Shown piece after piece: positions 1,218 to 62,295 of a stretch of 64,000 nucleotides of DNA. Position numbers and translations under genes: made by a program. Each line of letters begins with the position of its first letter. Position 1 is the first letter of the stretch. The DNA lies in assembly GCA_051362555.1 (NCBI GenBank), contig CM120642.1, positions 8,432,001 to 8,496,000 of the forward strand, in the 5' to 3' direction. The notes beneath the pieces were generated by a model. It had not been told where the DNA came from. It made no database searches and saw nothing but the letters and a program-made list of their open reading frames with translations. Source of the DNA: Lingula anatina. Its lineage: Eukaryota; Animalia; Brachiopoda.

Positions 1218-1317
1218 ATGAAGATCGGCAACTTCGATAGCATATCCAGGTGGTTCCCCATCACGGCAGTGATTGTTCTAGGCCTATTGGGTGAGGTCCC
1301 CTCAAGCCATGTTCCTG
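1218..1317 (+). CDS. Gene A exon 1, signal peptide
   Basis: MKIGNFDSISRWFPITAVIVLGLLGEVPSSHVP has a hydrophobic core and ends in a phase-1 donor G|GTAAGT. Confidence 0.75.
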
Positions 1318-4300
1318 GTAAGTCTCGTGGCGAATATAGTGAATGAACGTGTACAGGCGACCTTTATACCCATGTGCCCAGAAGGAGCACCTCTTCTTTC
1401 TACAGAGAGCCTGCCTATTTACTGAGAATTTAACTGTCCTTTCGGCACATTGATCTTTGCCTCAGTTTTTTGGCCTCACATGCTACCATGTAGGTACAGG
1501 TACAATGTACTTTTACCCTGTAAGTAATGTATGTCCGCAACAGCAACATTACTATCTTCAATGTCTTTGATAAACAGAAATGCTTTGATAGATAATACTG
1601 TTTAGATTTTATGTATAAATGCAAAGTGTAGATCTGCACTTGGAACTGGCTATAAAATCCTTTATCCCCTTCGCGCACAGCATTACTCATTGCCTTACTT
1701 TGACCAAGATCTTTTAAAATGAGATAAATTAATGCCGTTACACCCTTTTAAATGTGTCATGCCATCAAGCGTGCACTTTTCAGTAATATACCTCGGGCAT
1801 ACATTATAAATAATTGCGAATTATACAACACCGCCCGAAGATCAGAATCAAAATGTTGAATAGCTACCACTAGATCTTAATCAAGATTTGAATAGTTGTA
1901 CATTCTATACAGTATATTGAAATTTTATGTAGGTGATGTGTTATTAAGTATTATCTTTTATAAGTATTTTTGTTTATCAACAATTTTATACGTCATTTCA
2001 CTGTAATGCAAATAATTGCAAAAAGGAATAGAATGAAAAAGTGTGATGTTTTTTTCAGAAAAATATAAGTACATTTAACTGTTAACTTAATAATGGAAGC
2101 GATTTTTATCAGTTAAGCATCATTTGAAAGGAAATGAAAGTGTTTGTTGTGTTTATATCTTCTGAGTGACAGAATAAATTAATGTTCTTAAGGTTAATAT
2201 GACTGCCAGATTTGTGGTCTAACAAAGGGTTGAAACCCCCACTTTCTCGTAGATAAAATGGCATCTTCACACTTAAATGGGCTCTAAAAAGGAGCCTCTA
2301 AATACAATTCGAAATAAACATTATGTTAATTCTTTCAGGATTCTGCCCCTGGTTCGAAGTTCTTCCCGGCTATGGCCAAGTCTGCTTATCAGGGTCCCCA
2401 TCAGATTTCTGGACCGCGAAACTGGAATGTGAAAAACTGTGTGGTCATCTTCTGATGGTTAAGACTGACCGCGACAAGCAAGTCCTGGACATGATGTTAA
2501 GGAGGTGAATTGTAGATATTTAAGTTGGTCAATTAGGAGAATGTGGCAATATTATTGTTATTGTTTGCTATTGTCTCTGACCATTACTTCCCCTGCGTGC
2601 GCGCTATTTCGTCTGATTTTGATAGCGAGATTTTCTCAAGTGCTGGGCGTAAAATTGTGTACTCACAATATGCTATATGGTAACGCAGAAAAATATTAAT
2701 TTCAGGGACGAAGTCCCCCTTAATTTGAGCCCGCAGGTTGGTTTGTGGATCGGAGGGTATCGGAACAACAAGACGGCACCACTCCGGTGGGTGGACGGAA
2801 CTGTAGTTGATGGTGAGGATCCGATTAGTATTTTCAGTTGTTCGTTATAGCCGTTATTTCATTTTTCATTCAACAGTAAATTTCAACAGCAGGGGAAGCA
2901 TAGTATAGTCGTTGTAAACAGAAAATAACTTGAAGAGAAAATGCTGGTAAGGAGAGTTAGAGTATCCTAAAAGGGAAGGTGAGGATGTTTGGGGATTCTC
3001 AAAATGTGGATAGAAACAGTTGTTTTTACACGTAACACATTTGTGTGTGTATGGGTTAAGGAAACGCCCTGGAACGTCAAAGTAGTAACTTTCCTAAAAA
3101 ACTTGTCATTTTCGCTCTTTTCTGTTTTATTTTTGTTATGTTACTTTTGATTCGTGCTTTTTATTATTTCAGACGTCTATCTTTTCTTTTCTTTTGTTCT
3201 TATTTATTTGTTCATTCGTGCTTCCAGACGCTGCCTTTGACAATATTAATCATACAGAATCCGTTTGCCAAGCGCTTCTGCTCCACAAACTCGATCAGTT
3301 TCAAGAGCACTTTAGGTTTGATAGCATACATCTTTCTATAATATATAAAATGTAAGGATTCATAGAATACACGAAACGTAGACACATTATGAAGAAATCG
3401 TGTAACCACGAGATGTAAGGCCCCATTTAGAATGGATGAACCGAGTACTTACTGATCTGCCGACTAAAATGGCTGACCACAGTTCAAAAGCGATGCCACT
3501 GATTCTTGACGGTCTCCCAAACTCCTTACGCGCCTTTAAACGGATTAAATCTCTGCTCCGAGGTTTAATTGCTAGGCCTCTGCAGCGACGGCGCGTGTGG
3601 AGGCGGGAAGACCATCAGGAATCAGCGGCATCGATTTTGAACTGTGGTCGGCCATATTTAGACGGCGGATCAGTAAGTACTCGGATCATCCATTCTGAAT
3701 AGGGCCCAAGACGCAGTTAACCTAAGTTTGACACAGTTCATTTGATTAAAAATATTGCGAACAAACGTCGCATTCTCAATATACAAGCATGCTATAGGTA
3801 ATACAGAATGGCAAAGGTGTCTCTGATCTAGAGCCTTCTTTAACATACACCAATATCTATATTTTCAGGGCCAGTTTAAGAGACTGCTATATAAGCAAAC
3901 ACCCATTCATATGCGCTAGAAACAACCACTCCGCTCACGGTAGGAGATCACGCCTAGCTTAAATATATGTGCAATTAAAACAATAATATTTGTAAAGGGG
4001 GCATAGATTAACAATGTTGATTACTACTTCATCAAGTCGTTGTTTGATATTATACTGAAAAGAGAATGATATTATCATAAGTGGCGGCATTCATTGTCTT
4101 ATTTGTTATGACCTATTTATTTATTCAGATTGTACCCATTCCGGAGGACCGTCGCTTGCCTGTGCACTCGAGGTCATTGACACGCCCGCCTACGTGTACG
4201 TAAACCAGAATGATATGACGATGACCACAGTGTGCAAACGTGGACATATATTTCCCGATGGTTCAAGAATAAAAACGGTATCTTACAATAGCGAGGGGTG

Positions 4301-7300
4301 GTCTCGTTCATTTCCGCCTTGTATAGGTAAGGTCTGCAAGTCATTTAGAGAACTTAATGGGTTTAATATATAAGATCAAATTTGACAGTTTTTTATAATA
4401 TATCATTTTTTATCTGTCTTCAATGGTTCATTTAAATGTTATATTATATCATTGTAATAATTATTGTTATTTTTATTAACATTGTTTTTATCATGTGTAA
4501 AAGTACGTCATTAGGTTATAGTTTAACGATTTCAGGTGGCATATTTCCACTGTTACTTATATCATCACGACACTTAAACTGAAGTCAATTTCATATGGTG
4601 CTACACGTAGTGGCGAAAACTGTTTTTTGTTGCAGCTATAGACCAGTATCTGAACGGAATCCGTGAATGTAACGCCTCTCGGCAGATCAACGCGGCGACC
4701 TTATTGTTACGTGAGCCTAGTGTCCCTCAAGATGGAACGCCTTGGACACCATATGGTTGGTCTCTCGCTCTTATCTCTCTCTCTCTCTCTCTCACACACA
4801 AACACACACATAAGCGATATTATTATTTCAGGCTTAAAAAGTGTCTACTGTCCCTTTGAGCCTCACCATACATTTTGGACATGGGAATACACGTAGGCCT
4901 ACATGTAACAAGAATAGTTGAGCGTAAAATCAACGTCATTTTAAGACAAAAATGACCCGAACTTATTATTTAATGATTCTTACTATACCAATTGTTCTTT
5001 TTTGGCTGACTTTTAGAACCTACAAAATGTGACAGCTCTGGAACATGCCACGTCGACCAAATAAAATGTCCGCCAGGCTACACCTACCGACGGGCCAACT
5101 CCTGCTACAAGGCTTTTGTCGGAATGAGGCCGTGGTCGGACGCACAAAATGTATGCAGTCAAGATGGCGGCCATCTTGTTTCCCTGGAATCAATGTCTGA
5201 ATTGAACCACGTTTTGGACCAATTTCGAAGACATTCGACTATGTTCCCAAGTAGGTGATACAGTGCTTGACGCGACTGAAAAATTCTTAAACACATGAAA
5301 ATGAAAAGACAAATTAGATTTTGATATATGTGCCAGTTATACCTATCCTCTGTAATGGTTTATAAACAATAAGCTTGATCATTCCACCCGTCCTTTGCAA
5401 GTTAGCAAAAGGCTAAAGCCGTTACTGTTATATACCTATTTTGTAATGCGTTGATGGTAGTGGAAGGGCTATTTTTAAACACATGTCCATTTTGTCCCGA
5501 AATTTCAGTGCTTTAGATATTGAATATTAAAAAGAAACATCTCTGCTAATTCAGTGGTATATCATACAGTTCCAGGCTTGCGTGGTTTATGGAAGCTTGG
5601 TCTGGAACATGGCGCTAGCGATCTCAGCGGCCAAGGTTTCCACGGACGGATGAACAACACCACGTACTCAATTGGAGTCAATGGTGAACCGGAAGGGGCA
5701 ATCGAATTTCTTGAGAATACAACGTCTTTCGTAGAGATAATGAGTCCAGATATCTTCAGCATGAAGTCGGCAATAACACTGATGTTTCAAATCAAACCCG
5801 TTGACGATGGTCGCGTGAGGCGGCATCAGATATTACTCTTCGGCGACATCCTTGATGTGTATTATCTCAATGGAAGTGTGCACTTTGTTATCAAAGATGG
5901 CGCCCCGATTCTCCTGCCCGGTGTCCGCGCGGCCAAGTGGACAAGCTTGGCGCTCACATATGACCACAGCACCAAGGTCTTAGTCCTTTGGAAGGCGAAT
6001 AATCCGGCAGTGAAAACCTCAATAGAGGTTCGTGAAGATGACCACGTTCCACCAAATGGTTTGACCCGTATTGTCCTTGGAAATGGATTCACTGTAGACG
6101 ATGAGCGTTATTACGGGGGAACAACACGGATGCACTGCTTTCAAATATATGACAGAGCACTGGGACTGGAGGATATGCTTTATACCTGGGAATTATGCAG
6201 GTCGAGCGGTATGTACAAACAGCATGGATGCCAACATCACATGTTCTATATGTCTAGAGACTTTTTTTAATTCAGCGAAATAGAAAACATTGTAAAAGGA
6301 ACTCCACATAGGGACCTAGTACTACTAGTAAAATGGCTTGCATATAAACTGTAGCAATCTAAACATAAATGAATTTTAACTTTATATAATGTGACTTAAA
6401 TGATATGATATGGTATACTTAGCTTCTGATGGAGGACTGTGGATAGGAGCCCACGAGGTCGGTGGTCAATTTCGGTGGACCAGCGGTTCCCTCTTGAGTG
6501 ACACGGAGACAAACGCGGCAGCCGCATGGAGTCCCACCGCACAACGCGGGGACGGCGGATGTTTGTTATTGAGACCTTTTGGATTCCACAACGTAGACTG
6601 CCAGCAGGAACAGAGGGAATTCATTTGTGAGATAGGTATATCTTTTGGAGAATTTTTGTTTTAAATTTCCACTTATTAAGCAATAGATTTAAATGTAGCT
6701 ATGAGATAATGTTTATACAGACTTGTATGTGCTCAGTCGCACGTTTATTGGTATGGCATTACTGTCAATAAATCTCTTACAGGTTTCACGTACCAGACAA
6801 ATATTTTGTAACTTGACAGTATAACAATTTCAAAGAAACTATTTTTACTTGAAGAACACCTAGACCATCCCCTAGGTCCAGCAGGCGAGGTTTTCAGGAC
6901 TTGTGAAGATGTAGGGTCCAATTCAAACGGTAGATGGCGACAGGTGCTTGTCCAGCCTGTGGACCACCTACCGCCGTTCACAGTAACCTGTGGTTTTGAC
7001 TACACCACGGGGACGTTCCACCTGAGCCTGGAAACAGACCAGAAATGGATAGATATCAAAAATGCATTCCTTTCCTCAGAAGTTGAGTTTTCCTACAATG
7101 AAAGTCTCGGGTTGAATTTACATTTGATACCATGGTATAAACAGCGCTCTATCCAGTGCCGACAGGTAAGTGTAACTACTGGGGTTGGGTAAGTATACAT
7201 GTACACTTACTAATAATTTAAGACTTGGAAAATATATAACCATTCTATCACTTTCAAATGTTCTATGGGTCTTTTGAATGGGAAACCAATAATGAGTTAT

Positions 7301-10300
7301 TTAAATTCGACAATGAAATTTTAAACATTTCGCTGAAAGTTGAAGATCAGTTAAGTGCTTGTATTAAATAATGTTTACGTTTTCATTATAGTCGATATTC
7401 AAAATAAAATGTCACATTTCTCCATTAACTTAAAAAAGATTGATTTGCTTGATGCACTTACTGATAACCTTTTTAATTTCGGCGAAAATTCCCGTTTTCT
7501 AAAACGCCCCAAGGGCTTGTCACTCGTCCGTGATACCTCAATCATTCAGACCACCTCGAGCGATTTTGCACCCCCTTATTACTGTCACAGTTTGAGGTAC
7601 GGAAAAGCCGATGTGTTCTTAATCATATCCCAATATGTTCGAAATCAAAAGCATAACTATAGAATGAAATTAGAAGAACCTGTGCCTAATAATGTTGGCA
7701 TCATTTGCAGTACGTTCAGGCCCATTGTAGCAACGCAGTTATCTTTGGAGGCGACTATTGGTGGAAGTCCATCCAGGGGTATCACATGACAGATTGGGGC
7801 GGAGCCTCAACCAACAGCTCTACTTGCGCATGTGCGGGATCCGAATCCGGTTGCAACAATCCATTGTGAGTACCTGGTACTTCAATCGTTAGGAATTATT
7901 GAAAGCGGGAAGGACTGAGGCATATCTTGAAGATAAAAGTGACTGTCTACATTTTAATGATCTTGGAGATACATGTAGAAGTGACTGTCTACTTGTACAT
8001 TTTAGTGATCCTTTATTCTTTATGCATCCTGACCGAGACGTACTAGATAGTTAAAACAAATTTTAGAACTAGTTTAAAAGAGGCTCATGTCAATATTTCA
8101 GGTCTCCCTGTCACTGCGACGGGAAGGGGAACGCGACCGACTCTGGGTTTCTCAGCGACCAACGCTATCTCCCACTTCGAGGTGTTTTTATATCGGGGAC
8201 AGACAACGCAGACGCAGTAACTACAATATATGTTGGCCCGTTTACCTGCAAAAGAGGTAAAGTCTGAGTGCGTTTTTGTTTTAAAGAATGCGAATAAGTA
8301 TAACACAATTTATTCAGAATGAAACATTATTGAATCGCACTTGTCATTATTGAATACTTTTTAAGCTCAGAGTTCAGCACACAGAGAAATTCAAAAGCAA
8401 TGGTAGGCCTAATCTAAGTAGTTAGCGTGACACATTTTACAGTTTGAGGATTCTTTATGTTGGAATAATCCCGCTGAAAGTATACTTATGAAGGCAAGAT
8501 TGTAACAGTAGGCTACGCCTATCCTTTACATGCATCTCTCATAATACTCTAGTCTAAACGATTCAAAAAGGAACATCGCTATTAAGCCATTATTGTATCT
8601 ACTGTTGTGCAACTGATAATTCCAAAGGTGTATATTTTTCAGTCCAATTGCTTGATCTTGGCATGTTGCTCCTTAATTCTATATACACAACAAAGGCGAA
8701 CAACATCCGGGCATCTGACATTGGAGCTGGAGCCGGTGGCGTAGGCGACGTAATTTATAGTTTTGTTGTCCAATCAACTGACCCTGTGGATATCATAATA
8801 GACCTCCATGCAGAGTATTCATTTGATGTGAATATGAGGCTGTACGGCGGCGTGAACCCACTCACTTTTCAACCTCTTGGCGACAGATTAATTGTTCTCA
8901 GTGACGACGACGGAGATTCTCTGAATCCTAGAATTATGGCAAGGTTACGGGGAAACCACACGTACTATATTGTCGTAAGCGGGACAGTGGGGACCTTCAC
9001 CAATCGAGGGTATTTTGAACTTCACTTAAGTACAAGTGGTTTTAACACATTTAAAGGTATTCAGTTATAATTCAGTTTTTGGAATTTAATGTCATGTCTT
9101 GTTGCATTTGAGCATGCTAATCTGCCATATAACAAAGAACACTGGTTTCATGCACATATGGTATGCGAAAATTATGATTACATTTTGTCTTTTCGCCAAT
9201 GGTATATAAAGTTCGTACATATTGTAATTTTATAGCTAGAGCATTTTTATATAGCCAGTTCTTGTCTTTGGGTATCAAAATTCTTTATTTACGGTGGTAT
9301 GTAAAGTAAGGCGACTTGAATTCCAGCATTATCCGAAGATTGTTTAACAGATGCGGCGTGTCAAAAATATGACGCCGCCAGTTGGTGTCCAGAACAAACA
9401 TACAGATGTGAGTGCCGCCCAGGTTTTGTGTCGGATCAGTTCTCACACTGTCGGAAAGGTATTTTTACTCATTTTAGTCCTTTAACTTTTAGTTTCGTGT
9501 TTTTACTATGATTGCTGCAATCGCATTTTATGGAGGCTTGTTTTTCTCTGTATCCGAAAGGCGCGATTCTCACTGTTTTAGTACCCTATTTTAACACAAA
9601 ACTTTATGTACAATAATTTAGAATTTGCTGAAGAATAGTAATTTCAACCAAAGAAGCGAATATCAACATTAAAAAATTATAACCTCGATTGTTATGGACA
9701 ATTGTATCTTTTCTAAATTGATCTCTACATCCAAAATCATCAGTGACTGATATGTACACTTATCCAAATAAGTCCTTAAACACTGAATATGATTTTATAT
9801 TATTTCAAAGTCACCCATTTGATTTTTTTTTTTTTAGTTCTAGGAATGGACTGTAACAACGATCTTGATTGTACCAGTGCGGTATACGGAAGTACATGTA
9901 ATGCGGACTCTACATTAGGACCGATCTGCACGTGCAAAACGAATTGGTACGAGAGAGAGAATGAGTGCAGTAAGTGCCGTTTTACCAAGCACGGGTTTCA
10001 GATGCAAATGTTATCCCAGATCACACGCATGCGCATTTGTAGCATTTGCAATTGTCACTGTTCTGTGTTGATGGGTCATTTTAATGATTAATTTCAAATA
10101 TTTTCTCTTTCGCGATAGTTTTAACTTGCTCTGCAAATTACTAAACTCTGCAGAACCGGGATCTTATTTCAACATTTGCAACCCAAATCGATGTAACATT
10201 TTAGATCACTACCACACTTGGCATTAGAGGTCACTGGTAACTAGCACACACTACCAGCCTAGTAGTCATTATTTCCCAATAATTTCTGAAACTCTATTTT

Positions 10301-13300
10301 CAACGTGCCACCTCTGTCTGCTTGCTTTACTGCTTGCTTTGGTTACAACGCCAAGGGAGCTGAGCTCCCAAACGGAAGTACGATGCGTTTACTGATGGCT
10401 CTGGCATTTTGTCTTTTTCACACACGGTACACTTAAAACAGAATGTGAAGCGCGTAACTGCATATATTAACTTTCTTCGTCCCAAAAGTGTATATTAAAT
10501 ATAACACAGCTGCTGAGCTTACTTATGTCCCGGTTGCAGTGTGCATCGAAAGGCTCACCAAATCGGGTCATGCCAGTATTTAATGGACACATTTGGGACC
10601 AAGTAATGTGGTTACTCGGTTCACACATTGATTCACATATTATTTTACGTGTGCTGTGCGTGAAATAGACAAACATCATTAGGTCTATTATCAATAAACT
10701 CAACGTACTTTTGTCTCGGGAGTTTAACATCCTTGAACATACATTAATCTCCTTATGTATTTCAGCCCCATGCATGTGTGCGTGTGATGTCACGGGGTTT
10801 TGTAGAAATAAAGACGAGGATGCCGCTCAGCTTTGTCACTGTGGGACGATGAGTCAGCCCTCTGCAGCTACACAAGGTTAGGGAGATGTTTCACAATGCA
10901 TCCTTATACTTCAGATTAAATATTGGCATATTCCGCAGAAAAACTGTTTCAGCGGATTCAGCAGGATTGGATTTGTACAAACAGAAGTGCCTTTATCGCA
11001 TCTCCACAATCTTTAATTATACATGTATCTACAATATTTTTGCTCCGTAAACAAAAATATTCGAGAGAAAAGACCATTTAGACAGCAGTTATATTTCATT
11101 ACCGTTGCGTGAAGTCCTTATGCTGCACTCACCCCCGCAAAAAAGCCTTTATATTTAGATTAACAAATTAAACACTCGCAGATAAGAGTAACAAAACACT
11201 TAATATTTAATTTCTACACTTCATTGAACAATTGACTACAAAATAAAAACTCCTGTTTTTTTTTCAATTGAAGGTAAAAAAGACAACGCAGGCAAAATGT
11301 TTCTACTATCTACAATAGACGGGTGTACGATGGCAGGCGACCCAGACATCGGGGTATACGTACAGATCTCCACGGACAGCGCAATCCCAGCTCACGTCAC
11401 AATTACGTCACCTCTACTGCAATCTAGATCCCTCCCGGACTTGGCTCAGGAAGTTCTACAGAGAGGCAAGCCATTTACCTTTCACCTTCCAACCGAGTTG
11501 TTCTGCACGAATTTAGAGAAGGCCGTGAACGATAGCATATTAGTTTTGAGCACACGGGATGTGTCTGTGTCTGTGATCATTCAAGGCCCAGATGTGGCCG
11601 GAGGGTATCTGGCCATACCGGTTGATGCTTGGGGGCAAGAGTATATGGCGGCGTGTGGCGAGTATCCAATTTATCCTAACCGTCATCACGAATTTGTTGT
11701 TTTAGCCATACATGAGAAAACGAAAGTCCGCATCCAAATACCGCAGCATACACCACAGATGCCTTTATTCCAATTTGAAGGCAGACACTACGCTGGCCAC
11801 GAGTCATTTGAAATCGAGCTTTCGAGATATCAAACATTCCACGTGTATCAATTGACACGACCACTGACAAGTGCATATATCGTCTCGGACAAACCCGTTG
11901 GGCTTATATGCGGTTCGAGGGTAATTCCATTGGCGGAGAGAAGTCCTGGCTTGTCTCATGATATGATGATTGAAATGATGCCACCGATTTCAACGTGGGG
12001 ACAGACTTACGTGTTCTTTCTACCAAGCACGCTCCCTGATGCAACTGGCATGGAATTGGCGTTACTGTCCCCTCGGTCCAAAACATCTGTACTTGTGTCT
12101 GATACAACCGCCACTTACGAAATACAAGTATACGAATATCCACAGCGAGGAATACTTATTCTGCCACTTGAGTTTGACGTAACTGACGATATGGGAGTTT
12201 TGATAAAGGTTTCGGGTGGAAATGACCCGGGGCTTGTAGTTCTAGGAGGAAGTCAGGGTGTATACAAACGTGAATCTCAAAAAGGGGGGCGTCATCTGCA
12301 TGTTCTTACGTCTCTCCAGCAGTCCCCTTCCCGGTCAACGTTCGTAGCAGGACAGCTTGAAAGTCGGTTGGGATTGAAGTCGACGCCATACGCACAGCAC
12401 TTCGTGAAGACCGATAACATGACACTGGATACCAGCGTTTGGCGTGGTTTTCCAGAAAATCTTGTGAACCCGGCTGAGTGTGTGATAAACCCGGGGGTCC
12501 ACACGCTGTCTAATGAAATGCCACAAGAAAGCGTGGAGGGAACACTTTATGGCACGGGAAAGCGGATTGAATATGCATTTGCTGTTGGAGCACTCTATCA
12601 AGAAACCCATGTAAGATATGTTTTCGTAAGATAAATATCCTATTTGAAATTAGATTCTCTTTTGATGTATAGAATTCAGTAATTAATGACCAACAGCGAG
12701 ATTGTTACGTGATGCACTGTATTATATCAAAATATACTTCCCTACACAAAATTAGATCACGCTGTATTTCGTTATCTTTTTGGATTCGAATTTACAATTA
12801 CTTCGAATATACTTCGCATCACATACAGCGTGTTTTTTGTAAAAGCCATCCATAAGGTTTATACATGTACGTGCAGCTTAGAAACTCTCAATGCTAATCT
12901 TAAATATATTTATGGGTGATGTATTTTTTTAGCCATGCCTTCCCAGTTTGTCGTCGGCTGGCGACCTGGTGGACAACGACTGTGACGGCTCTGTGGATGA
13001 AGAGGTGGTTAATGGTTTAGGTGCGGTTTCATTCTTTTCTTAAGTTTGCATTCAATGGACTGAGATGCTTGTCAGAAAGGCAGCTTTGATGGCATCGAAG
13101 GGTAATAGAATGTTGCCCAATGGCTAAATTTACAAGGAGCCCAACCCACATCGTTGAACACCCCGTGACGTAGGCCTACTAGTTTTCCAATGCTTTGTCA
13201 GAAATAAGCTTTACTTTTGTGACATACTTAACGATGTTAAGCAATGATACCACTTCACTTTTATTTCTGGCGTTCAAATCAAGTCTACTTAGCTATCTTT

Positions 13301-17353: not shown

Positions 17354-19161
17354 CCATGACATAATTGGGAAAAGAGATCATTCCGTTTGTTAAACATGTG
17401 TTATCTGAATTCGCCCTTCAAACCATGAAAATTGATTTTTGATTAAAAAAAGGTATTTGAAATGATCCACATATTTATATAGATTTACAAATATATCTTG
17501 TGTCCCTGTTGTTTAAAGCACACTTCGCCGATTTTGAAGCTTAATTTTAAAGTTTGATGCAATTTGTGATATTATATCTATCAAGACTGCAGGGATTCTA
17601 TGAAATTGCACAAAGGCCAAATTCCATACATATATATTTTTTTTCATAAAAAGTTATTTGTATTATAAACATATTTTTGGCAGAAAAACTGAATTATACA
17701 CAAATGCCACGTACAATTTAAATAAATATTAATATTTCACACTTATTATTTAGTTTGTTTAGAAGCCACAGTTCAATGGGCTATATCTGAAGATTTTATT
17801 TTCAAGATGGACCACGAGTATTTCCAGACCTGTATGTTTTAATGACTCGGTGGAGACCCACATATAGTACCGGTACATACTGCATGTATTCTTGATCTAG
17901 GTCTCACACTTTTGGTATCCAAACGTACATGTTACAAAAAATTACCTTTCAATAAAGTTGAAGGTTTACCAACTTTGTGATAAACCTAATAACAATGGCA
18001 GATTCAGGGAGGAGACAGCATGCACCTGTCCACGTATTGCTCATTAAACTTTGGAGTTAATCCTTCCACCGCCTCCTCAAAAACGACAGTATGCCTGTCA
18101 CTATACTGAGATACATCTGTGAAACGATATAATTTTTCAAGCCCTTCGTTCAATATACTAATCTTTTTTATCACTCTTCTCGTTTTTTAAACCATGGCTC
18201 CTCCGGCACTGCCGAACTTAATAATACGGCGACAATATAAAGTGAGAAACTGTTAAACCAGTGTTCGATTGGCCAAAAAGTATGCTTCGTTAAGGTGATT
18301 TATAACCACAAACTATTCTCTTCTTTTTATGCAAGCCACTCAAGCAAGCCTGTCTCACGTACGGCACTTATAATCGATTCAAAGAGCCATAAAATAATTA
18401 AATGAATGAAAAGATTAAGGGATCAATTCACCACTTAGAATTTGTATCTTTACAACAGCAATCCATTTAGAATCTTAAGATTATACGGCTAAAGATTTTT
18501 TGCCAATTTTTTCGTGAACGGTTATATAACACGTATTGATTTAATGCGTTAAATACAATAATTTAATTTACAAACATTGCATTTAAATGCATCCCATATA
18601 CGCAACATTGGACAGAATTTATGTGTGTTGCATCTTCCACAGTGCTTACCCCATTTGGAACAGCTTCACTTCTCCTTATTGTACATTTTAAGGGCTTATT
18701 TTTAAATACTAAAAAACGAACAGAAATAAGCAAACTAAAGATCTTATTGTTGGGAGAACCGGACAACAAAGTATGTACAAACCAAGGCAAACTGTTATAT
18801 TTCGTCCACGTGGTTTTCATATTATGAGACTTCAATTTTGATTCACAGTCGTACTGGTGAGAAAAATCACCCGTGGCAGTAAATGTTTAAATGGACGAAA
18901 CTGCTTTCAAATCGGGTTTTTGATAGCGTATATACATTGTACTGGCACCTTTATGATGTTTGAAGGCAAATTTAAATATGATATTACTTATGAAATGAAA
19001 TAAATTGGCCAAAAAACATCTTTATTATTATCATTTCCTAAAGAATGAAGCAGCTAAAGATAACTCTTTGCAACCCCACAAACGAAATTTGTGCCAAATT
19101 GTTTGTAATAAATATTAACCTTTATTGACTCGTCACATCATAAATTTTAGGATGAGGACTC

Positions 19162-36175: not shown

Positions 36176-36233
<58 letters not shown>

Positions 36234-37149: not shown

Positions 37150-37227
<78 letters not shown>

Positions 37228-40448: not shown

Positions 40449-40498
<50 letters not shown>

Positions 40499-42732: not shown

Positions 42733-42735
<3 letters not shown>

Positions 42736-42807
<72 letters not shown>
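42736..42807. repeat. (TA)n microsatellite at the junction of the two duplication units
   Basis: Homology between the units begins immediately after this run. Confidence 0.9.
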
Positions 42808-42810
<3 letters not shown>

Positions 42811-52600: not shown

Positions 52601-55600
52601 CGCATTGATGCAGCTGACTCCAATATGCTGAAAAGAAACAGGATTAAGCTCATAATGCATAAAACAATAACAGAGTGAAAATATGCAAAGTCATACCCTT
52701 GGGGGCGGATACAGAGATATTTTCTGAGAGTCTTCCAAATTATCTTTGTTGATCCATCCTCCATTTTTGACCGTCTTCCGACAGAAAAAATAGATACCTG
52801 TCAATGTAAACTTAAAAATCTGACCGTGTTCCGGAAGACCCAGAAAAACGGCCTAAATCCGCCCTTGGCCCTAGTATAACTCGGTGACAGCATAAACTCA
52901 CAGTTCTGCCATTCGATAGATCAAAATATTGCTGGTGTGGCGTGACGAAAGCGTTCTACAGTAGGCCATACGCGTGTTCACTGTTTGAAATTATTTAGTC
53001 AGTGCTGGCAAAAAGATACCGAATGTTTTGTGCCGGTAAGCTTACATGCCAAATGACGGACAAATTTTACGACAGCATTCAGATTCAGACATCGTATTAC
53101 TGGTTACCAGGTCGGTACAACTCTGCGGGGGATTCTCGTTGTGGTGAAATCAGTCATATCAACTTAATTGTCTGACACGACTCCTCGAGCAGCTCCTTTT
53201 AAGCCGATTCTTCTGATTGCACTTGGGCGAAACTCCCTGCACAGTTGGGCCGACCCAGCTAGTACGATGCGTGAATTTGAATGCATCCTACAAAAAAAAA
53301 AAAAAAATAACACGGTGCATTGTGCTGGCTGTCAGTCTGTGCCCTAGGGTTACCTGGGCATAATGGTACAAAGTCTGAGCGCACCTTTGGTGGCGAATGT
53401 GACTTCATGTTGAAAAAATTACCCAGAAAGTAACAAAAATATCACGACCTACTTTGTGTTTCATTCAAGTGGCATTCAAGTGACATTTACCGTACTATCG
53501 GTATCAGTTTAATTCAAGACACCTTACTTATTGCAGTATTAAGATATATACATACACAAATGTATAAATAACGTACTAACCTGTTCACAATTTAATGATA
53601 CATCCGTAATGGCGGACAGAAAGTTTAAATTCAGCCTTTTTTCCTTATACGAGTACGCTAAAGACACATTGCTGTTGCTTTGAAACTGATAATCTCTGTC
53701 ACCGTAAATCGTGAAATCGTTGTATCCTCCAATTTCTGCCTCTTCACATCTGGCGTAAATGGGGGGAATGTTTGGTGATGGATATATCCATGCTTTCATA
53801 CCAGTCGGGAATACATCGTGGCACGTTCTGTAAGCATCTTTATCAAATACATCGTTCATATCTGAAATAAAAACAAATAAATACAGGACTGAAACGATAA
53901 CTCTGCGAATGATCGAATAAACAGGGGTGATCTGAACAAACGTGATATTTGCAAAACGGCAAGCACGTGCTCCCATGCCCAATACACAGCCAGTGTTGGG
54001 TAAGTGACGTAAGATATTATATTTTTACGTGAACTTTAAATATACAAACAAAAAGAGAAATTCAATTGATAAATCAGCACAATTTTAAATTAAACGTAAC
54101 AACACTTGTTCGTGAAAATAAGACTGCATTCCCACAGATTTAGATAGATCCATCTGGATCGACCCAACTCCCTGGGGGTTCAAGCTAAATTGCTGTCAGC
54201 CGAGCGCGCACGGAAGTTAATTACACCCTTACAGCTTTCAGTAGGCGGGACAGACATTTAAGCCGGCTAAGCTGACAGTAATCTACTGAGACTCCCCACG
54301 GGGATAGATCGATCTAAAATCTGTGGGAATATAGTCTTAACTTAATCTATTTAACACATGTTAGACATATTCTGATTGTGGTAAATAAGCGTGCATGCAA
54401 AACTTGACATTTTATAAGAACATCCATAAGCTAATTACCTACCAATTTCGCAAACGAACTGGTACTTATCTTCGCACGGCGTATTAGACAGCGCCCCATT
54501 ATCCCAGTATAATGTCATACAACTGGTGCTGTTCACCCAAATCAACTGATCTGAAAATATAGCGAGGTCAAAGGTCAGATTCAATCTCAGTTACCAAAGT
54601 ACATTTGAGTAGTAAGAAATCGGGCTGAGGGTTCTTTTTCATGTGAGGATTGTGTGAGGAGTGTTTACTTGTTTGTTTGTTTGTTTGTTTACAACATCTT
54701 TTGGGAGGGGGGTAACTATGGCTACCAATGCTTGTTTTAAATTTTCTTTTTTAAAGCCTTATTTATTTCTTCTTGTGTATTTAAATTTTTATGACATCAT
54801 TTTCTTTGTTTTTGAAACAACCCAATAATGCACTGTAACCAAATTCAGTGCAAGTGCACTATTACCTTTAAAATGAGACTCGACTGAAAATCAAAACAGC
54901 TAGACAATAAAGGATTTTCAAAAACAAAGAAAATGATATCATAAAAAATCTAAATACACAAGAAAAATAAATCGGGCTTTATAAAAGAAAATGATTTTAA
55001 AAACATTGGTAGCCATTCTTACCCCCCCCCCCCCCAAAAAAAAAAAAAAAAAAAAAAAAGCAATCCTCTCACAATCCTCACGAAGTGAAGGTGTGTTCAG
55101 ACCAGTAAAATTTAACATTAATAAAAATGAAAATTTATTCGATCTGAGTCGCGGGCTTGGGCGCGCGACTCGTAACAAGTGTCAATAGAAGTTTATATCT
55201 CTTATCTAACGTCAATCTTTTTCTTATCTTATCTTCTTTAATTATAGTAAAGTCACAATAAAGATAAGTCTGTCACGCCAAGGTAGGTATAAAACCAGGC
55301 TACGACCTGACAATAAAGGAGTTTTGATTTTCGTAACTAAACGGTGGTGTTGCATTACTCTTCTCTCCGGGCATAATCCAAGTTGGGGTTCGCGTACCGT
55401 ACCTAGAATCTTCCAGCGTAGGATTAGAGCCCCTAGCGTCTAGATTATACCCGCGGTATATCTAGGAACTTAGTACAAATCGTGAAAAGAACCCTCATCT
55501 TAATTTCTAACCACTCATTTGGTAATTGCAACGAGAGAGAGAGAGGGAGAGAGGAACCATTTCTTACTAGTAATATGCATATGATTGCCGAGATACTGGC

Positions 55601-56152
55601 CCATGAATAATAGCTCTGCTTGGGTTTCAAAATCTACCAGATTGCCGCCATCATTAGCACAGATCCCTCGCGCCATATCCCAAGTAAGTTCAGTCATATA
55701 TAACTTGTAACAGGAAGACCTGTGTCGAAAGTTGTAACCCGCGGGACAAGGTCGATAGTTGTTCACACAGACTGGAACATTGTCGTCTACTAAGTGGGAC
55801 TCGGGGAAGCACAGGCGCCTGTTATTCGGTCGCTTGCACATAAACTTCCCTTCCTCATTGCAATTTAGCGATTTCCACATCCCGTGTTTATCCGGTGGAT
55901 CGAGTGAATCGTAAAACAACCCGGCACAGTTGTCAGCGACATCTCCAGGATTCATGTTCTCATATTTAGCGCTGTTGCCGTCAGTCCAGTGAAATAGTCC
56001 GTCAAGGCCGATGTGAAACCATTCATCAGTAGTTGGCGAACTAATGACATAGATAAAGATACACATTAGTGGACATGACTTTTTAAAGGATTGGTCAGCA
56101 TAAGTATTAAATACGCTACACTCTAAAAGTCAAAGTGGCACAGAACTGTATG

Positions 56153-56204
<52 letters not shown>

Positions 56205-57146
56205 GGAGAGAGAGAGAGAGAGAGAGAGATGGCGGGTCTAGGGGTCACAGAACGCCACGCCTCCCCCCATAGTCCTGAGGTATCCCTCCTCCCACTTTTC
56301 CCTCTAAAAACAAAATAACAAGCGTAACGAGAAAAAATAAGCAAGAGTTTGCACCCTCATTCCTACAGTTATATTGCCCTCGTTAGTATACCGTTTTATA
56401 TTTGTCGACCGAAGCAAGGCAAAATAATATGATATACCTAGGCGACACTGGCTTCTGGGAAACGCCCGTCTCTCCATCTCCAGAAAAGTCAGACTGTTCG
56501 TGGCCCGTGAAGCTTGAATTGACCGCATTTTCGATGCCTACAATAGACTGGACGAAGGCCTGTTCCTCAGCGTCAAGGATGCTCACCAGATGACCTCCTG
56601 ATACAACACAGGAGGCCTCAGCAAGATCGTGTGGCAGTTTGGGTGTTTCAACCAACTTGTAACAGAATGGTGGTTGCGCCGGACTCCGAACCCATCCGTC
56701 TGGACAGCCTGTATCTGTCACGGTAAATACAATTATACGATTATCAAAAGTTTAATATACTTACAACTGTTGTTATTTTAATATTGGGATGGATAAAACG
56801 TTTTTGTAACATTTAATCTGTTGCAGCGTCATACATAAAAGCACATACAGGCGTCCTCGACCATCACTTCTTTCTGATGAATCGTTTATATATCGGAGCT
56901 TGCAATACAGTATACTCAACTAGCACATTCTTAGTATGCAGTTAGGGTTTGCTATTTGCTTGTTATATGCCAGTTGAAGACAGTAAGACTAGAGGACCTA
57001 CCAATAACTGGACGCTGGTACGGTGTCCCTGAGGCTGGCACACGTGGCCTCGGTTCCACCAGTGTGGCCGCCGTGATGTGCTTCCCCTCTGACCAGTTCG
57101 GTGGCAAACTTGCCAGATACTCATCAATTACTGAAATGTGGATCAG

Positions 57147-57210
<64 letters not shown>

Positions 57211-57353
57211 AAACAAAGAATATAAATTATTTGAAATTATTGGTATTTCAATGTGGACCCTTTCTGTGCAATGTGTGGGTAAAATAGTTAATCGCTGATA
57301 ACTTGAAAGCGTAAAAGTTAGTTTGCCTGTCTTAGAACAGCCACAAATCTAAA

Positions 57354-57403
<50 letters not shown>

Positions 57404-60400
57404 CAAAGTTTACTCCACCTTTACGCACTGATTTTTTTTAACAAAGGTCGACTTTCTTTTTAAATATACACAAAGGTGTGTGAACAATGTTAATAAAATC
57501 ACAATTTTATGGGTAAGGTAATATAATTTATGTGTTTTGTTTGTAAAACATCTTCATAGAGGCCCTGCTGAGAATCCCGATACGATAGCGGTACTCTTTG
57601 GGGGTCACAGGATGGCATTTTCTCGAAGGTCCGCTTGTCGTGAAAGAGTCAAAGAAAGGGAATGCTTCTCACTTACGTACGCAAGGAGGAAGTGTTTCCA
57701 AAAAGTTGCCCTTATCACAGGTTAGTACTTTCTTTTTCGTTCCATCTGGAAATATGTGGCCCCTTTTGCATTCTACTGTGGCGTTGTTGGAGAACGGATC
57801 GTAGTACGCGTAAGCTTGTGTTTGAACGCCATCTATTGGGCAACTATTGACTAGGCACTCTACATGAAATATGCAAAGGAAATGTGACCTTTAATTTAAT
57901 TCATTTTTACATATCTAAAAAAAATGAATTTTATAATAGAGGTACATGATAGACAAAACCTTAGAGCAATGATTGCCTTCGACTGCTCAGGTATAGTAAA
58001 AATCGCTCAGTATATAAAGTTTTATTATCATGATAATTTTTACTTTTCATCGTTACTGATAATGCCAATTATTTACTATATAAACTTGTTTTCACAACAC
58101 AAAATATTTAAACACCTAGCCTTATGATCTACCCAATGTCACAGGTACCTGTATAAAACAATAAAGTAAACATCTTGTATCCACAGCAGACTTAAGACTT
58201 ACACGCCCACCCCGACACGCACACCCACAATGAGGGACGCACGCAGGTATGCGCAAACACACCTAACACCAGCAGCGCCCTATTTTCCAATCACACTTTG
58301 ATGGAGCGAGACCCAGTTTCTCCCACCTTTTGGTACAGAGTAGCTGCTACTTCTCATACACACAAAATTATGGCCCGTTTCCGGCCCGATGCAAGAATAG
58401 TTGCCGGCAACAAAGTCCTCCGTTCTTCTGTAGGGCTCTACGTATGCCGTCAGTGCCGAACAGCCTAACCTGGACGACGTGAACGCGAGGGTAGGTCTCT
58501 CCATCAGGGTTGAATCCGACCAGACGGGGGCACTGCCGTTTTTGCTGTGAACGCCTAACCATACCCGCTTGTGGGATGAAAGTTTTATGGTCGAAGCTTC
58601 TCTGAAATCAATAATTCTTAACGAATAGAGAGGTAATAGATACTAAGAAAAAAATATATATGCATTAGTGTTACTTATCTGTACAAGGCAAACTGATTGT
58701 CTGTGTTCTATACGTGAAAATGGAAAAACGACACACCGAAAATGAGTGTAACTTTTTTGTTTTTCATTATTATGCAATAAGTTTACGAGTCAGGAAAAGC
58801 TCCTTTCATCAAGGATCTTTATATTTTTTCTAAATTCTATGTCGTGGATAGATATTAGAGTACACTTTACTTGTACCAGTAGTGAAGCGTGAAAATGCCA
58901 AAAGGCCAGTAACACATACACCGACTTTTCATTGCAACTTCACACATAGTAAGAACGACTTATAGATCTTATTCACTTTAATTGTATCCATTGTAGTCAC
59001 GTTAGTAAACGCACATCAATGACCTGTCCTCTGAAAGATTGCAGTGAAAGGATGTCGACCTTATGTGAAAATAAAACACGTCATTACAACAGATACAGAC
59101 AAGCTTGTTCTAAAAGTGAAAACTAATCCATATAACCATTACCTGTTCAATATAGTTCCCAACACGTGGTCATCCGTTGGATTTTTAGGCATGAACAGCC
59201 GTCCGCACATCTTGGCACAACGGTACACCGCCTGGTCCCAGCTTTCGGCCATAGACCGGGACACACACACCTCACCGTAGCCTGGCAACACCTCAAAGTT
59301 GGGACAGATACCTAAAATATAGACACTGAGCAAAAGTATAAATGTCACGTGTGGATTATAATGGGCTACGGAATCTCTTATCTGTATAGCTTCGGACAGT
59401 ACGGACAGTAATCTGTATAGCTACGGACAGTACGGACAATAATCTGTAGCACATTGAACAACAAAATTCCCTTTTTAAGATTTAATATATAAATAACTCA
59501 TAATGCTGATAATTTAAAAAAGTATTGCGTGGGGCGTTTACATTTTTTGTTCAGAGTGTATTACAGTGCTATACGGGTACTATATAAATAATCATCGCAT
59601 GATCGGCATCATCATATTTTTCTCGAATTTGGAAACAATATCATAAGCTGGTTTGCAATTGAACTTTTTAAATAAATGAATTGTAAAAACTACCTTTATC
59701 ATTTTATTTAATTATAATAATAATAATAATAATAATATATTTATTTAAAGTCTAAAATCCATAAAATATGTTCTGTAGACTTTACAAACTAAAAACTTAA
59801 AACACAGTAAGATGAATTGAATTAATAAAATTATGACTTAATAGTCTGAGTTAAGATAATGATGTCCAGTTAATATTTCCGAGTTATAAAATGTTCTTTA
59901 ATAAAATTTGTGAAAAAGGTATGTTTTTAAAGCTTTTTTAAAATCCTTCACTGAGCTAATGCTTCTCAAGTCTAGAGGTAATTTATTCCACTCATGTGGT
60001 GCTGCGTACTGGAATGATTTTTCGCCAAAAGATTTTAGTCTTGCGTTCTGTGGTTTTAGTAATAATTGATCCTTAGATCTTAAGGTACGGTTTGGTGTGT
60101 AATGGGATACAAGATCACAAATAAAATCTGGTGCAAGTCCGTAAAAAGCCGCATGAGCATGAGTTAAAAGTTTGAATAAGATCCGGGCGTTTACAGGTAG
60201 CCAGTGAAGTTGTTTTAATATCGGTGTCATGTGATTCTCCATAGAAGTTCGGGTAAGAAGACGTGCTGATATATTTTGAATGCGTTGGACTTTCTTTGTT
60301 CTTTCTATGCCGCATCCATAAAGCAAGGAGTTACAGTAATCAAGCCTTGATGTTACTAGGGCATGAATGACCGTGGCAGTGGCAGAACCTGTTAAATTAT

Positions 60401-62295
60401 TTCGTAGGGAACTGATGTTTCTTATGTGATACAAACAAGATTTTTTCACGTTGGCTATCTGCTTGTCCATGTTTAAAGTAGTATCAAAATACACCCCCAG
60501 ATTTTTTGCATGAGGAGAAACCCCAACTATTGCAGATCCAATTTGTAGAGATAGTCCTTCAGCTAAGTGTTTTGAGTGTGGTTGAGTGATGACCATGAAT
60601 TCGGTTTTTTCATCATTTAATTTTAGTTTACTTTTGATCATCCATTCTCGCAAATCTGAAATGGCATAGGTCATTCTAGTTATTGCATCTCCAGGCTTAA
60701 GAATATCACAGTTAAGGTACAACTGGGTGTCGTCTGCATATATGTGATAGCCAACTTGATGATGTCGTAGTATAGCACCCAAGGGTAGTGTGTACATGCA
60801 AAATTTAATCGGTCCAAGAACGCTGCCCTGTGGAACACCAAAAATCATCTGCTCAAGATCTGAAAGTACACCGTTGATGGATATCTGCTGTGTTCTACCA
60901 GTAAGATAAGACCGTAGGAGAGACAACGCCTTGTCCTTAATTCCAGCTGATTTCTCGAAGAATGATAGAAGAGTGTCATGGTCAACTGTATCAAATGCTG
61001 CTGAAAGATCTAATAGCACCAGTAAGACTGCCGAATGATTGTCAACACCAGTCAGAAGGTCATTTTTTATTCTCAGAAGAGCAAGCTCAGTGTTATGTTT
61101 TGCTTTATAAGCCGATTGCATTTGTTCCACCAAGTTATTCTGTTTTAGATGGTCAAATAGCCTCGTTGCCATGACTCTTTCAACCACCTTTGACAAGAAA
61201 TAAAGATTACTCACAGGTCTATAGTGATTAAAGACATTATGATCCAAATTATTCTTTTTCAGAAGAGGTTTGATTACTGCACTTTTGAATGAGTCTGGAA
61301 ATATTCCCTCTTTAAAGCATAAGTTCACCAGTTCTGTGATAAGATTTATGACAGTTGGTAGAATCTGGGTCAGCAGTGTTGTTGGGATGGGAATTATGGC
61401 ACCCCTTCTAAAATAATCCCTGAATTAAAAGCCATCTATTACCCAGAAGCTAGTTAGAAAATAATTACATCACTTGATGACAAAAAAGTATAATCAAAAG
61501 TACAGTGTTTGACAAATAAACTGTCCTGTCGTCCACGATACATTTGTGCACAGTTGAATAGTTCGCTATGTATTTTCAAATAAACAAATAGGTTTTTATT
61601 TGTCAACCGCGGTTAATTTTTTCCGTGCCTAGAAATGAGACTACTCGTTTAATCCCTTTTTTTAAATTTCATCTACTTAAATGAAAGGCAAAATATTGAT
61701 TTAAATGGATGATCATGCAATTTGTTTCAAGTAAAAGACTTGTTAAAACTCCTCGAACGTTTCATCTGACCTTTTCTCTGAACATTCTCCGAATTTCAGG
61801 CTTTATTAATCACTTTAAATCAGTCCATCCAGTAAATACGTACCAGTTTTTTTTTTTTTTTTTTTTTTTTAATTTTATGTAAAAACATCACAACAGTATC
61901 TCATAGTCATGTTTGGCTAATTTATCATTCTTTATATAGATGGCTGAATTTGATCAACGGAATGACGTGAGCGTTTTAACTATTTATTTTGTCGTCTAAC
62001 TTTCTTATAATAGGTACTGCCAAGATTAAAGTTTGATCCATTTTGACATTTTGTATATTAACGATGGATTTCTGATTCAGTAAAAAACGTGACCCACGAC
62101 CGACATGGTAATCACAGCTGTGAGATAAATAGCCTCATTTTCACCGCTGTAACGGTGTGTGGTTGTTTTCATGGCAAGTGTGGAAAGTAAAGTACAAAAC
62201 CTAACGTTACCTCCCATCCCCGTGACGCACGTGGTCGCCAGCAGGACACCAAAAGCCGCCACTGCAGTTATGATATTGAATCTGCTCATATTCAT
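43650..62295 (-). CDS. Gene B2: near-identical tandem copy of B1, apparently intact
   Basis: Same exon series: signal exon 62211-62295, 59143-59311, 58327-58601, 55568-56040, PPC-like 51046-51462, IgGFc 47898-49213, last exon 43650-43888. I saw no stops or frameshifts in the exons I checked, except a 1-nt change altering the last two residues. Confidence 0.8.
47898..49213 (-). CDS. Gene B2 IgGFc-binding domain exon
   Basis: ORF 47733..49430, nearly identical to the B1 exon. Confidence 0.85.
54122..54336. mobile_element. Same MITE family, counterpart of the 34167 copy in unit 2
   Basis: Same position and sequence within the duplication. Confidence 0.8.
59716..61391 (-). mobile_element. 5'-truncated L2/CR1-group LINE in B2 intron 1
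   Basis: Open RT ORF 59898..61328 (KPLLKK, YRPVSNL, LDLSAAFD, GVPQGS, YADD, LHWLPV). 3' AATAAA plus an (ATT)n tail. AATTAT target duplication at 59710-59715 and 61392-61397. Empty site at ~39948 in B1. Confidence 0.92.

What the first reader, a model, noticed from the sequence alone, without database searches (positions are those of the whole stretch)
1218..62295. Clustered family of ~2000-aa lectin / Caspr-FBG / PPC / IgGFc / ZP membrane proteins with an architecture I do not recognise
Seen in sequence: three apparently intact genes join CTLs, Sushi, a Caspr-type fibrinogen-like domain, a PPC-like domain, EB modules, an IgGFc-binding domain and acidic metal motifs to a ZP-furin-TM tail. Established: ZP modules followed by a furin site and TM helix are cleaved and polymerise into extracellular filaments (egg coats, uromodulin, cuticlins). 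Inference: the products are polymerising coat or mucus filaments tipped with variable recognition domains, acting in gamete recognition, surface immunity or matrix formation. From memory, the ZP-C stretch GCGDGLV...GF...SPYFPAFK resembles abalone vitelline-envelope (VERL/VEZP) ZP domains.
Basis: partly seen in the sequence, partly recalled or inferred. Interest (0 to 1): 0.85.

Follow-up and report, generated by a model that had tools for sequence, protein, structure and literature searches.

The report
Brachiopod swappable-head ZP filament proteins
Three intact, transcribed genes of the lamp shell Lingula encode ~2,000-residue membrane proteins that join lectin-like and mucus-protein domains to a zona pellucida module, so they are likely cut free and assembled into surface filaments; the parts are familiar, but this combination had no name in the papers searched.

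Summary
Confirmed. The window is Lingula anatina. It holds gene A (+, 28 exons, 2021 aa) and two 97.6%-identical tandem copies, B and C (-, 26 exons, 1928/1927 aa), all without stops. Stranded RNA reads show 17 of 27 A introns and 11 of 25 B/C introns, and an independent RefSeq model joins A end to end. The ZP module is real: VERL_C E 2e-19, ZP-type cysteines, furin site, hydrophobic patch, TM helix, and ZP filaments as top fold hits. Corrections: the acidic motif belongs to the IgGFc cassette (111 of 150 hits); the five lectin-like domains lack EPN/QPD; Caspr-FBG, PPC and Sushi labels stay unconfirmed; IgGFc+ZP pairs already occur in frog, urchin and oyster; the coding changes counted look purifying, not VERL-like. 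Additions: A has a LamG-like exon inserted inside a lectin domain; a fourth Lingula gene puts seven MAM domains on the same IgGFc-ZP stalk; a bivalve protein nests IgGFc inside ZP-C. Best reading: furin-released apical-matrix filaments with swappable heads, tissue unknown. New variant of a known kind.

The parts
1218..17355 (+). Gene A, 28 exons, 2021 aa (= L. anatina LOC106173434)
   Evidence: open frame; stranded RNA, junctions; RefSeq model
1218..1317 (+). A exon 1, start codon and signal-peptide-like leader
   Evidence: sequence; junction 1317-2339 in 45+34 reads; no signal-peptide predictor was available
2339..3939 (+). A C-type lectin-like domain 1 (exons 2-5), no EPN/QPD
   Evidence: Lectin_C at P0001 55-170
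4129..4326 (+). A Sushi-like exon, one cysteine missing relative to B
   Evidence: alignment to B; no Pfam hit; label recalled
5017..5250 (+). A lectin-like domain 2, first half
   Evidence: Lectin_C profile positions 4-37
5570..6208 (+). LamG/concanavalin-like exon (212 aa, phase 1-1) inserted inside lectin-like domain 2; absent from B/C
   Evidence: Laminin_G_3 E 0.031; BLASTP pairwise E 1e-11 to the Laminin_G_3 domain of P0023; junction 5250-5570 and loose end at 6208; fold search inconclusive
6423..6635 (+). A lectin-like domain 2, second half
   Evidence: Lectin_C profile positions 42-106
6855..8256 (+). A cysteine-rich domain (exons 11-13), Caspr/fibrinogen-like by recall only
   Evidence: conserved with B; no profile, Atlas or PDB hit
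8643..9056 (+). A PPC-like exon
   Evidence: 36% to B exon 12; PPC E 0.07 in B only
9327..10876 (+). A two EB/EGF-like modules and a short cysteine module
   Evidence: weak EB/cEGF hits; junctions
11274..12610 (+). A IgGFc-binding (FCGBP-N) domain, one exon
   Evidence: PF17517 E 1.2e-24; junction 10876-11274 in 35+76 reads
12933..13690 (+). A acidic DNDCDG/DDNDG motif, tail of the IgGFc cassette
   Evidence: MopE-like E 0.0004; similar motif in 111 of 150 hits
13947..16408 (+). A ZP module (ZP-N with 4 Cys, ZP-C)
   Evidence: VERL_C E 2.1e-19; alignment
16629..16788 (+). A last ZP-C cysteine, furin site RRKRR (aa 1903) and hydrophobic-patch-like strand
17082..17355 (+). A transmembrane helix, short tail, stop
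   Evidence: hydropathy 3.1
23629..40970 (-). Gene B, 26 exons, 1928 aa: three lectin-like domains (third shortened), no LamG; last 18 intron phases identical to A
   Evidence: RNA
27953..29268 (-). B IgGFc-binding exon
   Evidence: PF17517 E 4.1e-32
23629..26871 (-). B ZP module, furin site RKRR (aa 1797), TM
   Evidence: VERL_C E 6.7e-20 on the RefSeq fragment P0154; Foldseek
43650..62295 (-). Gene C, 26 exons, 1927 aa, tandem copy of B (97.6% aa)
   Evidence: P0003 equals C at 11 of 11 diagnostic sites
42735..42810 (.). (TA)n tract at the junction of the two ~19.5-kb duplicated units; the B unit also begins at a (TA)n tract near 23233

Best explanation
These are intact, transcribed Lingula genes for type I membrane proteins with a ZP module, furin site and transmembrane helix, which are likely cleaved and polymerised into extracellular filaments of an epithelial surface matrix. 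Shown: one reading frame from leader to TM in A, B and C; spliced sense-strand RNA; ZP module followed by a polybasic site, a hydrophobic strand and a TM helix; the same IgGFc-acidic-ZP stalk under a different (7x MAM) head in a fourth gene. Inferred from uromodulin/ZP2/ZP3: cleavage at the polybasic site releases the blocking strand, ZP-N and ZP-C of neighbours interlock, and the ~1,500-1,600 upstream residues project as side arms. Inferred: the IgGFc cassette with its acidic, probably Ca-binding motif cross-links filaments or ties them to mucus, and the lectin-like, LamG-like and cysteine-rich domains bind partners that are more likely proteins or matrix than simple sugars. Inferred: the site is a secretory epithelium such as mantle or lophophore. 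The heads were likely assembled by shuffling of phase-1 exons, one of which landed in an intron inside a lectin domain.
For: Open frames. RNA in X1, X3 (A) and X2 (B/C); all 15 listed A joints fall on modelled introns with 21-68 reads each in X1 from first to last, as one transcript would give. Independent RefSeq model. VERL_C E 2e-19. Four ZP-N cysteines, six ZP-C cysteines, polybasic site, hydrophobic strand and TM aligned in A, B and P0010. The top 21 Foldseek rows for the B-type model are all ZP proteins. Cleavage mechanism as stated in 10.1101/2023.06.21.544075 (passages). P0010 architecture; a single origin of the Lingula IgGFc-ZP domains is not rejected (p-AU 0.64). No spliced A reads in X4 or X7, and 2 reads at one B/C joint in X8, so expression is restricted. 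Two FCGBP-like genes and a uromodulin-like gene are mantle-enriched in Lingula (PMC4595640 Suppl. Table 19), not shown to be these genes.
Against: No long reads or contigs (table 8 empty); 10 of 27 A introns and 14 of 25 B/C introns were not displayed, and the PPC-to-EB joint was displayed in neither. Foldseek E-values were only 0.002 or worse, from a model of mean pLDDT 32. Polymerisation was not tested. Tissue of the runs is not given. No Pro/Thr/Ser-rich mucin stretch (max 0.38 per 60 aa). In both trees P0010's IgGFc domain did not group with A/B (long branch). B places about 25 residues between the furin site and the candidate patch, and the patch is assigned by position only.
Confidence: 0.6

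Rival explanations
1. Egg-coat (vitelline envelope) subunits whose heads recognise sperm, like abalone VERL/VEZP.
For: VERL_C is the best ZP profile; clustered duplicates; restricted expression; five substitutions within 11 residues of A's ZP-N between two assemblies.
Against: VERL_C also hits the MAM paralogue, so it is not egg-specific; no tandem ZP-N repeats, which carry sperm binding in VERL; B versus C dN/dS 0.40; listed A read variants give 19 synonymous and 15 non-synonymous codons (39 of the 40 variant rows shown, 111 in all); no substitution in A's first 831 residues between assemblies.
Confidence: 0.15
2. Surface immune decoys or pattern-recognition filaments that trap microbes, like uromodulin, GP2 or DMBT1. 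This is a functional sub-case of the best explanation with microbes as ligand.
For: Lectin-like, LamG-like and IgGFc domains; 18-24 N-glycosylation sequons; copy-number expansion with mosaic B/C sequences. Decoy role of uromodulin/GP2/DMBT1 is recalled.
Against: 0 of 5 lectin-like domains have EPN/QPD; only purifying signals found; no induction data.
Confidence: 0.15
3. Non-polymerising membrane receptor or adhesion molecule (betaglycan/endoglin-like use of the ZP module), shed at the polybasic site.
For: TM helix and short tail; betaglycan ZP-C among the fold hits (rank 21); many adhesion-type domains.
Against: Polybasic site right after ZP-C and a following hydrophobic strand in A, B/C and P0010; filament-forming ZP proteins fill the higher fold ranks.
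Confidence: 0.1
4. The IgGFc domain is a filament-bound enzyme, a peptide L/D-isomerase as in Bombina skin.
For: PMC3325411 states that the frog isomerase is related to the N-terminal domain of human FCGBP (passages).
Against: A and B IgGFc domains are long-branch and score only 88-112 bits on the profile against 150-280 for most hits; no catalytic residues were available to check.
Confidence: 0.05
5. B and C are two haplotypes placed in tandem by the assembler, so the cluster has two genes, not three.
For: Coding divergence 90 of about 5,780 bases and intron divergence 2.3% equal the reported 1.6% heterozygosity (PMC4595640); units are bounded by (TA)n tracts; 13 of 22 listed X2 read variants are C alleles (list truncated).
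Against: The RefSeq assembly holds three distinct B/C-type IgGFc regions: P0003 (C at 11 of 11 sites), P0154 (B at 12 of 13) and P0005 (16 private changes); P0003, P0005 and P0007 share a 26,023-base contig length and neighbouring locus numbers. One diploid locus cannot give three.
Confidence: 0.2

Closest known systems
Uromodulin, GP2, DMBT1, alpha-tectorin (somatic ZP-module filaments with N-terminal binding arms)
   Same: Leader, modular arm, ZP-N/ZP-C, polybasic cleavage site, hydrophobic patch, membrane anchor; uromodulin is the top fold hit.
   Different: Arm built from lectin-like, LamG-like, cysteine-rich, PPC-like, EB and IgGFc domains; no SRCR, CUB, VWD or NIDO found; ZP-C is VERL_C-type.
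Abalone VERL/VEZP
   Same: VERL_C profile match E 2e-19; gene duplication.
   Different: No tandem ZP-N repeats seen; about 1,600-residue mosaic arm; purifying selection between copies; no ovary evidence.
FCGBP and invertebrate FCGBP_N proteins (PMC4948705)
   Same: IgGFc_binding domain followed by the acidic motif; FCGBP_N+Zona_pellucida labels on 3 Xenopus, 2 sea urchin and 1 oyster protein in Fig. S5; a 127-member, mostly chordate Atlas cluster carries both domains (score 0.81, lead only).
   Different: Domain lies at residue 1,033-1,118 instead of near the N-terminus (126 of 140 proteins have it within the first 200 residues); no VWD-C8-TIL.
Lophotrochozoan LZP1/LZP2/LEZ and molluscan EGFZP shell-matrix ZP proteins (PMC9290575)
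   Same: ZP module plus TM with shuffled N-terminal domains; 10 Lingula EGF+ZP proteins listed.
   Different: Their listed domains are EGF, SRCR, LDLa, CUB, ZnMc; no IgGFc in the supplement text. Whether any LanLEZ id is one of these genes could not be checked.
L. anatina XP_013416941.1 (P0010, annotated as MAM and LDL-receptor protein)
   Same: Cysteine module, IgGFc, acidic motif, VERL_C-type ZP, KR site, TM.
   Different: Seven MAM domains replace the whole lectin/FBG/PPC/EB head; about 25% identity; on another contig.

Membership tests
ZP-module proteins | ZP-N with four conserved cysteines | tested here: met
   Four Cys aligned in A, B, P0010; CUT_N E 0.006 on P0010; disulfide pairing not tested
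ZP-module proteins | ZP-C domain | tested here: met
   VERL_C E 2e-19, Zona_pellucida E 2.5e-9 on P0154; top 21 Foldseek rows are ZP proteins, E 0.002-0.1
ZP-module proteins | Polybasic cleavage site after ZP-C, then membrane anchor | tested here: met
   RRKRR in A, RKRR in B/C, TM hydropathy about 3
ZP-module proteins | External hydrophobic patch folding as ZP-C strand G | tested here: inconclusive
   Candidate strand by position; model there has pLDDT under 40 and shows helix
ZP-module proteins | Forms filaments after cleavage | not testable with these tools
   Needs expression and EM; the complex prediction was never run
VERL/VEZP egg-coat family | VERL_C-type ZP module | tested here: met
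VERL/VEZP egg-coat family | Tandem N-terminal ZP-N repeats (VERL) | tested here: not met
   Self-BLAST shows no such internal repeat in A; upstream region is made of other domains
VERL/VEZP egg-coat family | Ovary expression and presence in the vitelline envelope | not testable with these tools
   Run tissues not given
VERL/VEZP egg-coat family | Groups with VEZP in a ZP tree | not tested
   No VEZP sequence was returned
FCGBP | FCGBP_N domain | tested here: met
   PF17517 E 1e-24 and 4e-32
FCGBP | N-terminal position followed by VWD-C8-TIL repeats | tested here: not met
   Internal domain, no VWD
Ca-dependent C-type lectins | C-type lectin fold sequence and cysteines | tested here: met
   Lectin_C E 1.2e-14, 3.8e-17 on P0011; alignment
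Ca-dependent C-type lectins | EPN or QPD and WND sugar-binding motifs | tested here: not met
   0 of 5 domains have EPN, QPD or WND
Caspr/CNTNAP fibrinogen-like domain | Profile or structure match | tested here: inconclusive
   No hit in Pfam, Atlas or PDB; resemblance recalled only
PPC domain | PF04151 match | tested here: inconclusive
   E 0.07 in B, none in A; no bacterial relative
Gel-forming mucins | PTS-rich region and VWD repeats | tested here: not met

The most novel reading that the evidence does not exclude
Lingula has a family of ZP filaments in which a fixed IgGFc-acidic-ZP stalk carries interchangeable heads (lectin/LamG/FBG/PPC or seven MAM domains), one with a whole LamG domain plugged inside a lectin domain; and IgGFc has been coupled to ZP modules repeatedly in animals, upstream here and nested inside ZP-C in a bivalve, because FCGBP-N is a general cross-linker or modifying enzyme for extracellular filaments. 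That would give the long-unexplained FCGBP-N domain a testable role.
Probability: 0.3. Interest if true: 0.7.

Novelty: new variant of a known kind. Interest (0 to 1): 0.45.

Why it matters
It adds an unnamed family of large ZP-filament candidates in a phosphate-shelled brachiopod whose surface and shell matrices are little understood. A shared stalk with swapped heads is a clear case of exon shuffling, and the LamG exon inside a lectin domain is a domain insertion with a paralogue as uninserted control. The recurring IgGFc-ZP pairing offers a handle on FCGBP-N, whose biological role is stated as unknown in PMC9737082 (passage). It is not a new mechanism: ZP proteins with mosaic arms are common, and Lingula is known for domain shuffling.

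Tried and rejected
No whole genome was held. The run index listed no RNA holder; same-species raw runs were laid instead. Word-based homologue searches gave only P0001 and one RHS-type protein, and nothing shorter for the ZP region. AlphaFold models were poor (LamG exon pLDDT 46; B-type ZP fragment 32); Foldseek on the LamG model found nothing significant, with weak LNS/pentraxin rows at E 0.3-0.9. VIA-align searches and the complex prediction did not run, so there is no result on binding or polymer interfaces. PDB sequence searches found only C-type lectin and MAM chains, no ZP chain, and nothing useful for the FBG- and PPC-like exons. A bacterial origin for the PPC-like exon found no support. 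A bacterial origin for the IgGFc cassette was considered and dropped: the named nearest hits are animal proteins. An extra exon in B intron 7 was rejected on phase and depth (0.18). P0146 as a nested ZP protein was not supported by the HMM (E 0.33). Earlier scan findings returned nothing. Paper searches 'IgGFc + zona pellucida + C-type lectin' (2 hits; one read in passages and unrelated, one seen only as a listing), 'Lingula anatina + zona pellucida' (10), 'brachiopod/ZP domain/mantle/periostracum' (78, 12 listed) and lectin domain insertion (0) showed no description of this family. The library lacks most subscription papers, and file 1 of the PMC4948705 supplement was not searchable.
Full report
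Observation. The window is intron-rich animal DNA. A self-comparison shows a 15.5-kb block at 95% identity between 23478-38717 and 43491-58785, continuing to the window's end. From splice sites I built gene A on the + strand (1218-17355, 28 exons, 2021 aa after two boundary corrections) and genes B (40970-23629, 1928 aa) and C (62295-43650, 1927 aa) on the - strand, 26 exons each. None has an internal stop. A and B are about 35% identical, B and C 97.6%, and the last 18 intron phases of A and B are the same. The IgGFc exon of A found one protein, Lingula anatina XP_013410029.1 (P0001, 2020 aa), which matches A from end to end with 35 substitutions.

One transcript or several? Two of four runs laid on A carry it, on the sense strand, with depth in 30 and 29 of 30 bins. 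The tool showed 15 of 33 joints; all 15 are modelled introns. Intron 16 appears in table 5c and intron 9 as a loose end, giving 17 of 27. The joints include EB-EB, EB-cysteine module and cysteine module-IgGFc; counts in X1 run 21-68 throughout. For B/C, 10 of the 15 listed rows are modelled introns (five come from repeats) and one more is in table 5c, giving 11 of 25, including FBG-PPC and IgGFc-acidic, which A's list lacked. The PPC-EB joint was shown in neither but is in RefSeq models P0001 and P0011. No long reads were available, so a single full-length mRNA is well supported, not proven. Runs X4 and X7 had no spliced A reads and X8 had 2 reads at one B/C joint; tissues are not given.

Domains. 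Solid: Lectin_C, IgGFc_binding and VERL_C. The ZP module has four ZP-N and six ZP-C cysteines, a polybasic site, a hydrophobic strand and a TM helix. A poor model of the B-type fragment still returned ZP proteins in the top 21 Foldseek rows, best E 0.002. Weak: EB, the acidic motif, PPC. Unconfirmed: Caspr-type FBG and Sushi, whose labels are recalled patterns. None of five lectin-like domains has EPN, QPD or WND. There is no mucin-type PTS stretch.

A split lectin. In A, exon 8 matches Lectin_C positions 4-37 and exon 10 positions 42-106; between them lies a 212-codon phase 1-1 exon with a weak Laminin_G_3 hit and a pairwise E of 1e-11 to the Laminin_G_3 domain of an amphioxus protein. RNA includes it, as does RefSeq. 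B has a phase-1 intron at the like place and no insert. Its fold could not be confirmed.

Relatives. A HMMER search of 1.84 billion representatives with the IgGFc-to-ZP part gave 1,051 hits, 150 listed. I scanned the 149 non-self proteins with Pfam: only P0010 has both IgGFc and ZP; P0007 is a ZP fragment of B type. P0010 is a Lingula protein with seven MAM domains on the same stalk. Its IgGFc domain is long-branched and did not join A/B in free trees (146 and 36 rows, duplicates dropped), but a tree holding them together is not rejected (p-AU 0.64). The acidic motif occurs in 111 of 150 hits, so it belongs to the IgGFc cassette. A bivalve protein and an unnamed similar one carry that cassette inside ZP-C. 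The ranked list favours IgGFc hits, so ZP-only relatives and orthologues in other brachiopods may be missed.

Are B and C real? Their divergence equals Lingula heterozygosity and the units meet at a (TA)n tract, so a haplotype artefact is possible. Against it, RefSeq holds three distinct B/C-type IgGFc regions, two apparently on one 26-kb contig. I put real duplication at about 0.8. dN/dS is 0.40.

Literature. PMC4948705 (abstract, passages, Fig. S5 text parts 21, 25, 26) lists FCGBP_N with Zona_pellucida in Xenopus (3), sea urchin (2) and oyster (1), and says the domain is usually N-terminal. PMC9290575 (section 6, passages, supplement search) classifies lophotrochozoan ZP families without IgGFc. 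PMC4595640 (passages, supplement part 7 and searches) shows mantle-enriched FCGBP-like and uromodulin-like genes that I could not link to these. 10.1101/2023.06.21.544075 (passages) gives the cleavage and polymerisation mechanism. PMC3567151 (abstract) ties VERL sperm binding to ZP-N under positive selection. PMC3325411 (passages) links the frog L/D-isomerase to the FCGBP N-domain. PMC9737082 (passages) says FCGBP's role is unknown. PMC7333891 and PMC13361971 (passages) held nothing on this family. No search described it.

Mechanism and verdict. Most likely the precursors are cleaved at the polybasic site, lose the blocking strand, and polymerise into filaments with long side arms in an epithelial surface matrix (0.6). 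Egg coat (0.15), microbe-trapping decoy (0.15), non-polymerising receptor (0.1) and enzyme (0.05) remain open. They work like uromodulin- or DMBT1-type ZP proteins but belong to none of VERL, FCGBP or mucin by the features tested.

Noticed in passing
P0035/P0155 (Potamilus streckersoni) and P0141 (unnamed Logan record): The IgGFc-acidic cassette sits inside the ZP-C domain: ZP-N and the start of ZP-C lie before it, the rest of ZP-C, a KR site and TM after. With the cassette left out, a Lingula ZP profile scores 21-44 bits against a maximum of 4.9 in 600 shuffles. Pfam sees no ZP there.
   Followed up: partly
P0010 (L. anatina XP_013416941.1): Seven MAM domains on the same IgGFc-acidic-ZP-TM stalk; its RefSeq name hides this.
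   Followed up: partly
window 19163-23286: About 4.1-kb element between genes A and B with 136-nt, 99% inverted ends running into (TA)n, and an ORF at 21936-23108 (-) with a weak GIY-YIG hit; Penelope-like by recall.
   Followed up: partly
window 59901-61424 (-): Reverse transcriptase ORF (RVT_1 E 3e-26) in intron 1 of C, absent from B.
   Followed up: no
window 42986-43494: About 500-bp element with 58-nt inverted ends downstream of C, absent from the B unit.
   Followed up: no
window 34164-34376, 38716-38923, 41626-41849, 54119-54337, 63037-63254: Dispersed ~210-bp repeat with internal inverted arms, abundant on both strands in RNA reads.
   Followed up: no
gene A versus P0001: All 35 substitutions between the two assemblies lie after residue 831; none in the lectin/LamG head; five cluster in ZP-N. 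Haplotype mosaic or selection, not resolved.
   Followed up: partly
window 25486 (B) and 45445 (C): GC-AG intron in the ZP-C coding region, used in 17 reads.
   Followed up: yes
window 34488-34595 (-): B/C third lectin-like domain lacks the WIG strand and long loop (99 aa against about 130).
   Followed up: partly
P0095, P0114: Two single-domain IgGFc proteins of unchecked origin are the nearest relatives of the A/B/C IgGFc domains (support 99).
   Followed up: no
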